Shown here: one piece after another, positions 6,021-24,368 of the stretch
How positions within the stretch are numbered: position 1 is the first letter of the stretch
How the letters are laid out: the number at the start of each line of letters is the position of its first letter
Position numbers and translations under genes: made by a program
From: an uncultured Acidobacteriota bacterium
GTDB taxonomy: Bacteria; Acidobacteriota; Thermoanaerobaculia; UBA5066; DATFVB01
Reading direction: 5' to 3'
Assembly: GCA_963813155.1 (NCBI GenBank)
Contig: CAWEYG010000002.1
Location: 480,001 to 544,000 of the forward strand
DNA: 64,000 nt
Notes under the pieces: generated by a model
What the model saw: only the letters and a program-made list of their open reading frames with translations
What the model was told of the DNA's origin: nothing
Databases searched by the model: none

Positions 6021-6154
6021 CGCGAGCACGCGGGTGGCCCGGGACGAGACCCCCTTTTGCCGCTCGCGGCGCGGAGTCGTAGCAAAGTCATCGAACCGCA
6101 GCGAGCGGAAAAGCGGGGCGAGTCCCGTGACAGGCCCCGCAGTGCTCACGCGCG
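6021..6154. repeat. Long imperfect intergenic palindrome between convergent genes
   Basis: Nested complementary arms gagcac/gtgctc, cgggac/gtcccg, cccc/gggg, ctttt/aaaag, ccgctcgc/gcgagcgg. Confidence 0.7.
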
Positions 6155-10949: not shown

Positions 10950-13690
10950 ATGGAGGGACTCCGAATGCGGTATGCCCCGGTGCGCGAACAATTCGACCCG
11001 ATTCTCCCCCACGTCGAAAAGCCGGGGCGGTATCTGGGTCTCGAGCGCAACGTGATTCGCAAGGATCTCGCGGCCGCGTCTGTCGACGCTCGCGCTCGCG
11101 TTTCCCGACACCTACGAGATCGGCATGTCGCACACGGGCTTGAAAATCCTGTACGAGATCGTCAACCGCCGTCCGGAGTGGGCCTGCGAGCGGGCCTACG
11201 CGCCGTGGGTGGATTTCGAGGCGCGGATGCGCGAGAAGGGAATTCCCCTCTTCACCGTCGAGTCGTTTTCGCCGGTCACCGACTTCGACGCGGTGGGATT
11301 TTCGCTGCAGGCGGAGGTCAATTACTCCAACGTTCTGAACATGCTCGACCTGGCGGGCATCCCGGTGCTCCAGAGCGAGCGCCGCGAAACCGATCCGATC
11401 GTCCTCGGCGGCGGCCCGTGCACCGCGAACCCCGAGCCGCTCGCGATGTTCTTCGACGCGTTCCTGATCGGCGACGCGGAAGAGGCGTTGCCGATTTTCC
11501 TGGAAGAGCTGACCCGGTGGAAACTCGGGCCGCGCTCCACGCAGGCAGGTCTTCGAGATCCCGAGGGAAAGCGAACTGCGGCCGAGGGTCGAGAAGACTC
11601 TGCCGAGCGGAGCGCGGCAGCCGGGCTCTCCCGATCAGACTTTCTCTGGAAACTCTCGCAGATCCCCGGCTTCTACGTCCCCTCCCTGTACGACGTCGAC
11701 TACAACGACGACGGCACGATCGCGCGAATCGCCCCGAACCGCCCGGGCGTCCCGGAAAAGGCGAAGCGGGTCTGGGTCGAGAAGCTCTCGGCCGAGGCGT
11801 ACCCCGAAAAGCCGATCGTGCCTTCCGTCGACATCGTCCAGGACCGCCTCGGGCTCGAGATCATGCGCGGCTGCACGCAGGGGTGCCGGTTCTGCCAGGC
11901 GGGCTACTGGTACCGTCCCGTTCGCGAGCTCGATCCCGACGCCGTCGCATCGATGACGAAGAGGTTCATCGACGAGACGGGCTGGTCGGAAGTCGGGCTT
12001 CTTTCGCTTTCGACCGCGGATTATTCGCAGATCGAGCCGCTCGTCTCCTGCCTCGCTCCGCAGCTCTCGGAGCAGCGCGTGTCGATCTCGCTCCCGTCCC
12101 TTCGCGCGGAGGCGTTCTCCGTCGGCCTCGCCGAAGCGGTGTCGGAGGTCCGCAAGTCGGGCTTCACGTTCGCGCCGGAAACCGGCTCCGACCGCCTCCG
12201 CCGGGTCATCAACAAGACGTTCACGAACGCCGACATGGTGCAGGCGGCCGACGCCGCGTTTTCCCGCGGGTGGGACCTGATCAAGGTCTACACGATGATC
12301 GGCCTCCCGACCGAAACGGAATCCGACCTCGACGAGCTCGTGACGCTCGTGCGCGAACATTCTCGCGCAGGGCCGGAAGCACGGCCGCAAGGGAGTGAAC
12401 GTGTCGGTCGGATCGTTCGTCCCGAAGTCGTGGACGCCCTTCCAGTGGTCCGAGTTCGACGGCGTCGAAAAGCTGCGCGAGAAGATCCGCTATCTCCAGG
12501 CGAAGTTCCGGAACGTCCGCGGCGCGAAGATGAAGAACCACTCCGCCGAGGAAGCGGAAATCGAGTGCGCGCTCTCGCGCGGCGACCGCCGGATGGGAAC
12601 GGTCCTGCTCGAGGCCTGGAAACGCGGCGCCAAGTTCGACGGATGGAGCGAGCATTTCCGGTACGCCACGTGGCACGAGGCGTTTTCCGCGTGCGGAATC
12701 TCGCCGCGCCAGTACCTGCGCGCCTACTCGCAGGACGAGATCCTTCCCTGGGACGTGCTCGATGCCGCGCTCACGAAGAAATTCCTGAAGATCGAATGGA
12801 TCAAGGCCGTGCACGAGCGCGAGACCGACGACTGCAAGTGGGGGCATTGCTACGCGTGCGGAGTTCCGGGCAACGGCGAGGACACGGTGCTCGCCTCGCC
12901 GATGCTGAGCACGCTGCCGGTCTCCGGCGCCGCGCCGGGCCTCCTGCCTTCGCTTCCCGCGGCGCCGTTGCCGGCCGCCCCGTCGCCCGCGGCCTACGTC
13001 GAGAAAGCGAAGGGCGCGGCTTACCGCCAGAAGGCGATGCCGGACGTTCCCCGGGCCGCGAAAGTCCGTCCCGGTTTCCCGACCGGTTCGCCGGCGCCCC
13101 GGCGCAAACAGCGAATCACGTTCACGAAGCTCGGCGACGCGCGCTTCCTGTCCCACCGGAACACGATGGACGCGTTCGAGCGCGGCATCCGCGCGTCGGG
13201 ACTGCCCGCGAGCTACTCGGAGGGATTCAATCCCCGCATGCGCCTTTCGATGGGTCCGGCGCTCGCGCTCGGCCTCGAGTCGCGCCAGGAAGTGTTCGAC
13301 CTCGAGTCCGCCTCCGAGCTTCCGCAGGACGCCGCGGGCCGGATCAACGCCCGGCTCCCGGACGGTCTTCGCGTGACCCGCGTCGAGGAGCTCTCTCCGG
13401 GCGCCCCGCCGCTCTCGAAGGCGATCCGCTCCGCCGAGTACTCGGTCCGCCTCGACTCCGGTCTCGCCGACCGGGCGCGCCGGCTCGTCGAAGGTCCGCG
13501 GCCCGCGATCCCGGCGCTGACCGCGCTCCGGCTCGACGAAACCGGAGAACACCTGCGCTTCGCGGTCAACCTCGACCCGGCGGCGGGCGAGACCGCCTCG
13601 GCCAAGCAGATCGTCGGATCGCTCTTCGATTTTCCGCCCGAGGAGATCGTCTCGCTGTCGATCACGCGCGAGGCGATGGTTCTCGGCTGA
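10950..13690 (+). CDS. TIGR03960-type radical SAM protein fused to a TIGR03936/DUF2344-like domain; two frameshifts (~11085, ~12350)
   Basis: VEKPGRYLG / FPDTYEIGMSH, RGCTQGCRFCQAG (CxxxCxxC), FVPKSWTPFQW, RFLSHR...YSEGFNPRMRLS. Three ORF-track pieces join into one protein. Confidence 0.85.
11529..11618 (+). repeat. Hairpin repeat copy 1, in frame inside the radical SAM CDS
   Basis: Core GAGATCCCGAGGGAAAGCGAACTGCGGCCGAGGGTCGA at 11555-11592 is identical to 18921-18958 and to the reverse complement of 24041-24078. Confidence 0.9.
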
Positions 13691-18843: not shown

Positions 18844-18981
18844 CTCTGGGAGCTCGCAACCGCCCGAGCGAGGGACCGGGAGCGGCGCGGGGCTGATGCG
18901 CTCCGCGCAGGCTGGTCGCAGAGATCCCGAGGGAAAGCGAACTGCGGCCGAGGGTCGAATGAGGACTCGCCGAGCGGGGCG
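18844..18981 (+). repeat. Hairpin repeat copy 2 (intergenic)
   Basis: Identical 38-nt core at 18921-18958; its upstream flank (ctctgggag...ccgagcga...ggagcggcgcggggct) also resembles copy 3. Confidence 0.88.
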
Positions 18982-19023
18982 CTGGGCGATCCCGCTCACG
19001 CGGGACTGAACCGGCGTTCGCGG

Positions 19024-23802: not shown

Positions 23803-23990
23803 GCAGCCTTGGTCTCCCGGAATTGCTCGTGATCTTCCTGATCGTCCTGGTGATCTTCGGCGCCGGCAAGCTTCCCCAGCTCGGGAAGGGCATCGGCGAG
23901 GGAATCAAGAATTTCCGGAACTCCGTCAAGGCCGGCACGGAAGGCGACGATCCCGCCGCGAAACCGACAAAAGAAAACGAGACGAAGTAG
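23796..23990 (+). CDS. tatA: Twin-arginine translocase subunit
   Basis: [36 protein letters not shown]. Confidence 0.95.
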
Positions 23991-24019
23991 CCGCTCGCCG
24001 CCGTCGCGGCCAGCCCCAA

Positions 24020-24163
24020 GTGCCCGCTCGGCAAGTCTCTTCGACCCTCGGCCGCAGTTCGCTTTCCCTCGGGATCTCAGAGACCAGCCTGCGCGGGCGC
24101 TTTAGCCCCGGGCCGCTCCGTCGGCTTCGCTCGGCTCGGGTGGGCGCAGGTGCCTCCCGAGAG
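24020..24163 (-). repeat. Hairpin repeat copy 3 (intergenic, inverted)
   Basis: Reverse complement of the 38-nt core at 24041-24078. Confidence 0.88.
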
Positions 24164-24368
24164 GAGCGTATGTTTTTTCGCCGGAACGCTCTCGAAATCC
24201 GGAACAACGAAGTCGCGAAAAAATTTGCCCGAGGAGCGCGCACGGACAGGATGCCACCGCCGGGCGCGCTGCGTCTCCTCGAGGGAGGCACCGAGGCCCG
24301 CCCGAGCCGAGCCTTGGTGAGGCTGCTCGCGAGATGCGTCGCAGCGAGGCCATCGCCTCGTCGGCTGT

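What the first reader, a model, noticed from the sequence alone, without database searches (positions are those of the whole stretch)
11526..11626. Dispersed hairpin element inserted in frame into a radical SAM enzyme
Seen: the ~95-nt hairpin element also found at 18.9 and 24.0 kb lies inside the TIGR03960-type CDS without breaking the frame. It adds about 32 residues (roughly PRSTQAGLRDPEGKRTAAEGREDSAERSAAAG) between ELTRWK and LSRSDFL. CGGGC occurs at 11526-11530 and 11622-11626, exactly 96 nt apart. This could be a target duplication but is weak evidence in GC-rich DNA. Known precedent: Rickettsia palindromic elements insert in frame into proteins. Inference: an RPE-like mobile palindrome that adds peptide loops to proteins, in a lineage where I know of no such family.
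Basis: partly seen in the sequence, partly recalled or inferred. Interest (0 to 1): 0.8.

Follow-up and report, generated by a model that had tools for sequence, protein, structure and literature searches.

The report
In-frame hairpin repeat in rSAM gene
A small hairpin-forming DNA repeat scattered about 40 times through this soil Acidobacteriota genome also sits in frame inside a radical SAM enzyme gene and at least three other genes, adding a floppy 20-40-residue loop to each protein, much as the palindromic elements of Rickettsia do.

Summary
Window 11536-11634 is a 99-nt (33-codon) insert in the linker of a TIGR03960 radical SAM gene. Its 84-nt hairpin (11532-11615) belongs to a repeat family with about 41-43 copies in this genome, 33 and 5 in two congeners, and none in 4 genomes of the sister genus or 149 other genomes of the class. 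Of 39 relatives with the orthologue, 38 lack the insert. One congener (G002, unpublished) shares it in an intact gene. Short-read contigs from other runs bridge both junctions, show an empty allele, and show that the two frameshifts elsewhere in this gene are assembly errors. Three more genes here, and one on a metagenome contig, carry in-frame copies, in three different reading frames. In three of these loops other lineages carry different inserts, at least two of them a different palindromic repeat. An AlphaFold model puts the insert in a low-confidence loop between two confident helices. The CGGGC pair is not a target duplication, and I found no fixed duplication, no RAYT and no Rfam match. 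Verdict: a new, genus-restricted family of a known kind (RPE-like in-frame palindromic repeat). This scan has noted the hairpin families of this genome and RPE-like cases on other DNA before.

The parts
10950..13690 (+). TIGR03960 B12-binding radical SAM protein fused to a TIGR03936 domain. The start codon is at 10950 or 10965. In this assembly it is read in three frames because of two single-base errors.
   Evidence: NCBIfam TIGR03960 scores 484.3 bits (cut-off 462.3) in two stretches split by the insert, and TIGR03936 128 bits. Pfam finds Radical_SAM_N2, Radical_SAM and DUF2344. Intact single ORFs occur in G001, G002, G003 and G004.
11536..11634 (+). 99-nt (33-codon) in-frame insert; residues 138-170 of the translation of 11125-12372.
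   Evidence: Alignment with the empty alleles of G001 and three sister-genus genomes. Protein alignment A4. pLDDT is 51-68 across the insert against 95-97 in the flanks.
11532..11615 (+). Hairpin of the repeat family (family A): GCGCTCC...GGAGCGC.
   Evidence: Folds. Covariance-model match of 105.6 bits at window 11522-11634.
11548..11599 (+). Head of the hairpin: a 52-nt run identical in G000 and G002. Its central part is invariant or nearly so in all aligned copies.
   Evidence: longest identical run in the gene; 17 of 17 third codon positions identical against 68-72% in the flanks. Invariant columns.
11081..11085 (+). One extra base in the assembly (frameshift artefact).
   Evidence: absent in G001. 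table 4: one letter left out in the covering contigs of X1, X2, X6 and X7.
12354..12356 (+). One extra base in the assembly (frameshift artefact).
   Evidence: table 4: one letter left out in the covering contigs of X1 (14.4 of 14.4), X2 and X6.
18863..18986 (+). Second copy of family A in the window. The intergenic region differs from G001's.
23973..24135 (-). Third copy: full-length family A with the outer scaffold, starting right after the stop codon (TAG at 23997-23999) of a + strand gene.

Best explanation
Family A is a genus-restricted, non-autonomous hairpin repeat. It has an 85-95-nt core hairpin with an invariant head of about 40-50 nt, and is often embedded in a roughly 150-nt outer scaffold. 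Copies lie mostly just after or between genes. Occasionally one lands in DNA that codes for a permissive linker or loop. If it keeps the frame and has no stop codon, it persists and is read through as a hydrophilic, disordered loop. In the radical SAM gene, one such event added 33 codons between the last helix of the N-terminal B12-binding-like domain and the next helix. Shown here: the family, the insertion relative to orthologues, the preserved frame, the loop position, natural presence/absence alleles, and that this is not a misassembly. Inferred: that the insert is translated and tolerated, and that the element spreads by copying. The mechanism is unknown. The junctions show no fixed target duplication, so it is probably not a cut-and-paste or staggered-cut transposase.
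For: Family: there are 41 covariance-model matches in G000, 33 in G002, 5 in G001, and 0 in 4 sister-genus genomes. In a class sample, 2 of 151 genomes and 1 of 67 genera match. The exact 27-nt core occurs in only 28 loci of genome contigs and 22 metagenome contigs.

Structure: 96.6% of 912 pair cells are paired, and 9 of 20 pairs change on both sides. No shuffle out of 500 reaches this, and slid controls give 33-49% paired (the alignment was fitted to the model). Divergent copies still fold as single long hairpins.

Insertion in the rSAM gene: 38 of 39 relatives with an orthologue lack it, their two matched stretches overlapping or lying at most 21 nt apart. See also alignments. The linker is 18-28 aa in 138 of 142 homologues. 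TIGR03960 matches in two stretches here and one in G001.

Not an artefact: X1 contigs cover 10950-11580 and 11570-12278. X6 contigs, from another study, cover both junctions. An X2 contig carries an empty allele.

Maintained in frame: G002 has the same 99-nt insert at the same site in an intact ORF, with shared derived flanking residues SDFLWK.

Other in-frame copies: the cytochrome/TPR ORF C17:13731-16718 has Pfam domains on both sides, and the insert is absent from G001, G002, G003 and G005. CtaA matches COX15-CtaA as one stretch across the insert, which genus g2 lacks. Methyltransf_28 carries a copy on the opposite strand. A Pyr_redox_3 gene on contig L125 carries one in a third frame.

Loop position: in the model (mean pLDDT 88.8), the blocks covering residues 141-170 score 51-68, between helices 118-134 and 170-178, whose blocks score 96-97.
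Against: No mobility machinery or mechanism was found. There is no Y1_Tnp/RAYT in G000 (genome 90.8% complete). No autonomous element with the same ends was noticed. Junction repeats are 6, 4 and 0 nt in three clean filled/empty comparisons, whose direction (gain or loss) is not polarised.

The closest relative G001 lacks the rSAM insert while the more distant G002 has it. A single origin therefore needs a later loss, an old polymorphism or recombination.

The head is conserved beyond protein needs (17 of 17 third positions). This hints at a nucleotide-level function or gene conversion that a purely selfish reading does not explain.

There is no evidence of translation. Only 5 of 43 copies in G000 are inside genes, and two of those are the same gene assembled twice. 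The other copies were screened only with a crude GC3/ORF test.
Confidence: 0.8

Rival explanations
1. The repeat is above all a functional structured RNA or DNA module of the host, such as a 3'-UTR stabiliser or terminator, an RNase or protein binding site, or a small RNA. Selection keeps its head invariant, and the coding copies are by-products or even regulatory hairpins inside mRNAs.
For: The head is invariant across copies while the stems co-vary. Many copies lie 15-55 nt from the stop codon of a neighbouring ORF (flanks). The head is identical between G000 and G002 in the coding copy, including 17 of 17 third positions.
Against: No Rfam family matches. There is no T-run after the hairpin in the flanks shown. 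Copy number differs strongly between congeners (41/33/5), and orthologous intergenic sites hold different elements. That pattern fits turnover rather than conserved regulators. There are no expression data.
Confidence: 0.2
2. It is a classical MITE: a deletion derivative of an insertion sequence, moved in trans by that IS's transposase, with terminal inverted repeats and a fixed target-site duplication.
For: It is small, hairpin-forming and dispersed, with presence/absence alleles. One copy sits in a MAG labelled Alphaproteobacteria, with flanks unrelated to G000.
Against: Junction repeats are 6 nt (L142), 4 nt (L143) and none (L127), and there is none at the rSAM site. The outer stems differ between copies. 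No longer element with the same ends was seen among the HMM hits, though this search was not exhaustive.
Confidence: 0.1
3. It is a REPIN/REP-type element mobilised by a RAYT (IS200/IS605-like Y1 transposase).
For: It is a long hairpin, mostly extragenic and just after genes. Earlier notes of this scan on the same genome named REPINs as the closest known kind.
Against: PF01797 has 0 matches in G000, while the control rings in 6 of 14 known genomes. The consensus shows no GTAG or CGTC tag. The most conserved part is the apical head, not two inverted REP units.
Confidence: 0.05
4. The segment is an ancestral part of the protein that was lost elsewhere, or it is an assembly artefact.
For: The assembly does contain single-base errors in this very gene.
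Against: 38 of 39 orthologues and 138 of 142 wider homologues have the short linker. The insert is 88-97% identical at DNA level to intergenic copies. Contigs of other runs bridge both junctions.
Confidence: 0.01

Closest known systems
Rickettsia palindromic elements (RPE). Ogata et al. 2000 and 2002, known to me only as summarised in passages of the review PMC10969869.
   Same: It is a dispersed palindromic repeat of about 100-150 nt, found both between genes and in frame inside unrelated housekeeping genes. There it adds a peptide without breaking the protein. No transposase is known.
   Different: The lineage differs (soil Thermoanaerobaculia/Acidobacteriota, 66% G+C). I tested no sequence relation to RPEs. 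Only a minority of copies are intragenic (5 of 43 in G000), against nearly half for some RPE families. Copies are read in at least three frames rather than as one conserved peptide.
Intragenic MITEs and ERIC/BOX-type repeats that carry open frames (Delihas 2007; Anabaena MITEs; listed in PMC10969869, passages seen).
   Same: Small repeats make in-frame fusions with host ORFs. Some copies here also supply the last codons and the stop codon of a gene.
   Different: There is no fixed target duplication and no recognisable parent IS.
REPINs/REPs with RAYT transposases (recalled: Bertels and Rainey 2011; GTAG/CGTC REPs in PMC3733652, of which I saw only the search listing and the start of the abstract).
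   Same: Long hairpins lie just after genes at dozens of copies per genome, with turnover between close relatives.
   Different: No RAYT was found, there is no GTAG/CGTC tag, and conservation peaks in the loop-proximal head instead of the REP arms.

Membership tests
TIGR03960 B12-binding radical SAM protein (host gene) | Score above the curated NCBIfam cut-off | tested here: met
   484.3 bits against a cut-off of 462.3, in two stretches split at the insert. The G001 orthologue scores 494.8 bits in one stretch.
RPE-like in-frame palindromic repeat (functional class) | A dispersed palindromic repeat that also occurs between genes | tested here: met
   41-43 copies in G000, most of them outside ORFs.
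RPE-like in-frame palindromic repeat (functional class) | Copies inside several unrelated genes that keep the reading frame and are absent from orthologues | tested here: met
   The rSAM, cytochrome/TPR, CtaA and Methyltransf_28 genes, plus Pyr_redox_3 on contig L125.
RPE-like in-frame palindromic repeat (functional class) | The insert is translated and the host protein stays functional | not testable with these tools
   Only indirect evidence: an intact ORF in G002 despite 12-13% DNA divergence of the gene, and a loop position in the model.
Rickettsia RPE families proper | Sequence homology to RPE-1 to RPE-10 | not tested
   No RPE sequences were at hand. The element was found in only one genus of 67 sampled in its class.
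MITE | Target-site duplication of fixed length | tested here: not met
   Junction repeats are 6, 4 and 0 nt at L142, L143 and L127, and there is none at the rSAM site.
MITE | A parent IS with the same terminal inverted repeats | tested here: inconclusive
   HMM searches with the left and right outer parts found only other small repeats. This was not a systematic IS search.
REP/REPIN-RAYT | A RAYT (Y1_Tnp, PF01797) gene in the genome | tested here: not met
   0 matches in G000 (90.8% complete). The control rings in 6 of 14 genomes.
REP/REPIN-RAYT | A conserved GTAG or CGTC tag at the base of the palindrome | tested here: not met
   Neither tetranucleotide occurs in the consensus of alignments A2 or A3.
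Any Rfam RNA family | A match at or near the gathering score | tested here: not met
   Only chance-level hits appear (E 0.3-1, 20-22 bits against cut-offs of 40-74) over window 10-26 kb. There are none in seven element loci.

The most novel reading that the evidence does not exclude
Families A and B may be interchangeable 'cargo' heads carried in one shared hairpin scaffold (GAGCGAA-variable stem-...GGGGCCAACGCGCCGG / CCGGCGCTGGGGCT...-stem'-GAGCGAA). The scaffold would spread without a transposase-type target duplication, for example by template switching or recombination at microhomologies. The invariant head would be a functional nucleic-acid module, such as a protein-binding or processing site. 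In that case the copies inside genes place a conserved structured RNA element within mRNAs rather than being only tolerated junk. That would be a modular kind of bacterial repeat not described so far.
Probability: 0.15. Interest if true: 0.65.

Novelty: new member of a known kind. Interest (0 to 1): 0.45.

Why it matters
It extends the 'selfish palindromes inside proteins' phenomenon, best known from Rickettsia, to free-living soil Acidobacteriota. It also offers a tidy natural experiment. The same permissive loops (CtaA, Methyltransf_28, a Pyr_redox_3 protein) hold different inserts in different lineages, at least two of them other palindromic repeats. One insert has been kept in frame in two diverged congeners, and filled and empty alleles co-exist in soils. 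That makes it possible to ask how proteins gain loops, and whether the invariant head is kept for the element's sake or the host's. Practically, it warns annotators that such inserts, and the single-base errors of this assembly, can split or mis-size gene calls.

Tried and rejected
- Rfam scans of window 10-26 kb and of seven element loci found nothing meaningful.
- No RNA holder is listed among the public runs, so I make no statement on expression.
- The first AlphaFold job, with 19 close orthologues, gave a poor model (mean pLDDT 48.8). I replaced it with a 142-sequence alignment.
- A PDB sequence search found only one distant radical SAM core (9ccb_A, E = 3e-6), which does not cover the linker.
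- I looked for clean empty sites in G001 for the 18.9 kb, 24.0 kb, C2:414k, C2:436k and cytochrome copies. The intergenic or linker DNA there is replaced or too diverged to define ends.
- The CGGGC pair is rejected as a target duplication.
- The flanking coding sequence pairs in the RNA fold of the rSAM copy. I first read this as an inverted duplication of the target. I rejected that because the downstream flank aligns with the ancestral R..FL...L motif of all orthologues.
- The RAYT search found no match.
- A look-up of the element by sequence in earlier findings found nothing.
- The crude GC3/ORF screens miss genes broken by assembly errors. They flagged three 'spanning' frames (C5:135.6k, C6:145.6k, C3:40.3k) where the element lies at the 5' edge of a stop-to-stop frame. 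I took these to be upstream of the real start and did not examine them further.
- C2:286.6k is a diverged partial copy. It is not in the prepilin-peptidase gene nearby.
- Supplementary files of papers were not consulted.
Full report
1. WHAT IS THERE

In the frame that starts at 11125, the protein runs ...FLEELTRWK LGPRSTQAGLRDPEGKRTAAEGREDSAERSAAAGLSRSDFLWK LSQIPGFYVPS.... The stretch folds into a single hairpin (-70.2 kcal/mol, z = -4.15, 0 of 200 shuffles as good).

The host gene is a TIGR03960 B12-binding radical SAM protein fused to TIGR03936. It scores 484.3 bits against a cut-off of 462.3, and the match is split in two at the insert. Pfam finds Radical_SAM_N2, Radical_SAM and DUF2344.

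2. THE GENE IS BROKEN IN THE ASSEMBLY, BUT NOT IN NATURE

Compared with the closest relative G001, there is one extra base near 11081 and one near 12356. I laid Logan contigs of four public soil runs on 10950-12450. Every contig that covers these places leaves one letter out there. At 11083/11085 this holds for X1 (7.01 of 7.01), X2 (5.3 + 2.5 of 7.8), X6 and X7. At 12354-12356 it holds for X1 (7.6 + 6.8 of 14.4), X2 and X6. So both frameshifts are errors of this assembly.

The same call settles the misassembly question. X1 contigs cover 10950-11580 and 11570-12278, at 1 and 10 differing letters. X6 contigs, from another study, cover 10952-11553 and 11584-11739. An X2 contig joins the flanks with ...TCGCGCTCCGAATTCCTCTTCCGC... 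between them, which is an empty allele like G001's. X1 may be the source sample, so it is not independent. X2 and X6 come from other studies.

3. IT IS AN INSERTION

I searched 40 relatives with the 416-aa translation. 39 have an orthologue-level match; G006, only 51% complete, has just a paralogue-level one.
- In 38 of the 39, the match breaks at query residues about 127-138 and resumes at 161-169. The two genomic stretches overlap or lie at most 21 nt apart (G008 among them is unpublished).
- Only G002 (same genus, unpublished) matches continuously.

DNA and protein alignments give the same picture. G001 reads WK-SESR-AEFLFR-LSQ. The sister genus reads AK-SAGEPR-AAFLES-LAR. G000 has 33 extra codons after the codon for that conserved Arg (window 11536-11634).

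Among 142 homologues down to 42% identity, the stretch aligned to residues 125-177 is 18-28 aa long in 138. It is 37, 47 and 62 aa in three others, and 53 aa here.

G002 carries the same 99 nt at the same place in an intact ORF, plus 21 further nt upstream. G000 and G002 also share the derived flank SDFLWK, where the empty alleles have (A/S)EFLFR. I therefore read this as one old insertion. Its absence from the otherwise closer G001 (92.7% against 83.1% DNA identity) reflects loss, an old polymorphism or recombination. All statements about G002 rest on an unpublished genome and may not be published without its depositors' permission.

4. THE FAMILY

Copy counts:
- In G000: 42 blastn hits, 46 nhmmer hits, 43 core-HMM hits at E<1e-4 and 41 covariance-model hits.
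- In other genomes, the model finds 33 in G002, 5 in G001 (78% complete), 0 in the 4 genomes of the sister genus, and 0 in 149 other genomes of a 151-genome sample of the class (1 of 67 genera).
- The exact 27-nt head occurs in 28 loci of the species-representative genomes: 24 in one MAG labelled Thermoanaerobaculia, 3 in one labelled Acidobacteriota and 1 in one labelled Alphaproteobacteria. It also occurs in 22 metagenome contigs.
- No Rfam family matches.

Anatomy: the head (...GAGATCCCGAGGGAAAGCGAACTGCGGCCGAGGGTCGA...) is invariant or nearly so, while the stem varies but stays paired. On 46 distinct copies, 96.6% of 912 pair cells are standard pairs and 9 of 20 pairs change on both sides (for example C-G/U-A at 26/17 and 20/20). 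No shuffle out of 500 reaches this, and slid controls give 33-49% paired. Two caveats apply: the alignment was fitted to the model, and the copies are related. Very divergent copies, such as the one in the cytochrome gene, have different stem letters yet fold as one long hairpin.

About 28 copies are longer, about 150 nt. In these the core sits in an outer scaffold whose stems differ from copy to copy, bounded by direct GAGCGA(A/G) motifs. A second family, B, has a core of about 110 nt and 66 blastn hits including partial ones. It uses the same scaffold and is often adjacent to A.

5. OTHER GENES ARE HIT TOO

Five of the 43 copies in G000 lie inside genes.
- The rSAM gene.
- A multihaem cytochrome/TPR protein (C17:13731-16718, 996 codons open). 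Cytochrome_C554 lies before and TPR repeats after the insert TGVGLRDPEGKRTAAEGREGSTRGAESPPR. The insert is absent from G001, G002, G003 and G005. G004 has an unrelated tandem repeat there.
- The same gene on C2:438-440k, full of frame errors, so probably a second assembly of the locus.
- CtaA/COX15 (C1:630k). One Pfam stretch spans the insert ...SRPEGKRTAAERS.... The three sister-genus genomes have a short loop. G002 has a different palindromic repeat in the same loop, and G001 has yet another sequence.
- A Methyltransf_28 gene (C3:767.8k). Here the element lies on the opposite strand and is read as ...LLDPRPQFAFPRDLEDQPARSA.... G004 and G005 have a short loop; G002 and G003 carry other long inserts.

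A metagenome contig (L125) has a copy in a Pyr_redox_3 gene in a third frame (...EIPRESELRPRVEE...). At that very spot G000 carries a different palindromic repeat.

The frame used in the rSAM gene contains a TGA in 21 of 36 copies (the CTCTGAG subfamily). Only the TTCGAG subfamily can be read that way.

Two further copies supply the last codons and the stop codon of a pepP-like gene and of a periplasmic-binding-protein gene.

The remaining copies were screened only crudely. Many lie 15-55 nt beyond a neighbouring ORF's stop.

6. WHERE IT SITS IN THE PROTEIN

With a 142-sequence alignment that excludes G002, AlphaFold2 gives a confident model (mean pLDDT 88.8, pTM 0.84). The ten-residue blocks score:
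- 121-130: 96
- 131-140: 76
- 141-150: 53
- 151-160: 51
- 161-170: 68
- 171-180: 97

The insert (residues 138-170) is mostly coil, between helix 118-134 and helix 170-178. It is thus an excursion from the linker that follows the N-terminal B12-binding-like domain, where Pfam's Radical_SAM_N2 match ends at residue 138. That the enzyme still works is an inference.

7. HOW IT MOVES IS OPEN

- The CGGGC pair is not a target duplication.
- Three clean filled/empty comparisons between metagenome contigs and G000 show junction repeats of 6 nt (L142, CGGACC), 4 nt (L143, CGCT) and none. The last is L127, where a 343-nt composite sits in an ATGA stop/start overlap and supplies a new start codon. Without outgroups I cannot say which state is older.
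- No Y1/RAYT transposase is present in G000.
- One short copy lies right after a stop codon in a 412-kb contig of a MAG labelled Alphaproteobacteria, with flanks unrelated to G000. This hints at transfer, or at a binning or assembly problem.
- Between G000 and G002, the coding copy's head is a 52-nt identical run, the longest in the gene. It has 17 of 17 identical third positions against 68-72% in the flanks. So the head is held constant at the nucleotide level, either by selection or by conversion from other copies.

8. COMPARISON AND VERDICT

In behaviour this matches Rickettsia palindromic elements and other intragenic small repeats, as summarised in PMC10969869 (passages read). I have not read Ogata et al. 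2000 or 2002 themselves.

I found no paper on such repeats in Thermoanaerobaculia or Acidobacteria. Full-text searches on 'Thermoanaerobaculia' with 'repeat' (44 papers, 10 listed) and 'Acidobacteria' with 'miniature inverted-repeat' (7 listed) turned up nothing relevant among the titles and abstract starts. Supplements were not seen.

Earlier notes of this scan already described hairpin repeat families in other windows of this genome (e1-758408, e1-1536552), and RPE-like in-frame repeats in several other lineages.

This is therefore a new, genus-restricted member of a known kind. It is well documented here, with two less ordinary aspects: the repeated colonisation of the same protein loops by different inserts, including other repeat families, and the scaffold shared by two families.

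Noticed in passing
window 6030-6140; G000 C2:109985-110165 and about 60 other places: A second structured repeat family (B) has a core of about 110 nt and 66 blastn hits including partial ones. Some copies sit in the same outer scaffold (GAGCGAA-stem-...GGGGCCAACGCGCCGG / CCGGCGCTGGGGCT...-GAGCGAA) as family A, and many lie directly next to an A copy. No Rfam match.
   Followed up: partly
window about 11081-11085 and 12354-12356; also G000 C2:438-440k, C3:767.9k, L103, L104: The assembly carries single-base indel errors that split genes into several frames. Two are proven by contigs of other runs. The others are inferred from Pfam domains that continue in another frame. G001's CtaA also changes frame.
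   Followed up: partly
G000 C4: about 80.93-81.09k; G002 L110 (CtaA loop); G003 L116 (Methyltransf_28 loop): A different palindromic repeat, translated roughly as ...PLDLPSPTGEGWPSGRGEV... or ...GEGRGEG..., sits in frame in loops that carry family A in other lineages. The same loops are hit independently by different repeat families.
   Followed up: partly
L024:581-690 (contig of a MAG labelled Alphaproteobacteria): A single short family-A copy lies directly after a stop codon. The rest of the 8-kb locus has no similarity to G000. This could be horizontal transfer or a chimeric or mis-binned contig.
   Followed up: partly
G000 C2:135374-135483 (L103) and C1:651408-651533 (L104): A subfamily with TTA in its 3' arm provides the last 8-10 codons and the TAA stop of a converging pepP-like gene and of a Peripla_BP_6 gene.
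   Followed up: partly
L127:1311-1653 against G000 C3:783756/783757: A 343-nt composite (family A plus another repeat also present at G000 C6:221.5-221.85k) is inserted exactly in an ATGA stop/start overlap of two genes. The insert supplies the new start codon of the downstream gene.
   Followed up: partly
window 24129-24312: An inverted repeat with 38-nt arms (84% complementary, 108 nt apart) lies next to the 24.0 kb copy. Similar sequence occurs at G000 C2:165.4-165.7k, so it is probably yet another repeat family.
   Followed up: no
L107 (G004 C1:3400689-3402182): In G004 the variable linker of the cytochrome/TPR protein holds a tandem 8-residue repeat (...ASRANVAA/ASRADVAA... about five times) where G000 has the hairpin insert.
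   Followed up: no
P0048, P0049, P0002 (homologues of the rSAM protein): Three of 142 TIGR03960 homologues from other lineages have their own long inserts (37-62 aa) in the same linker, so this linker accepts insertions repeatedly.
   Followed up: no
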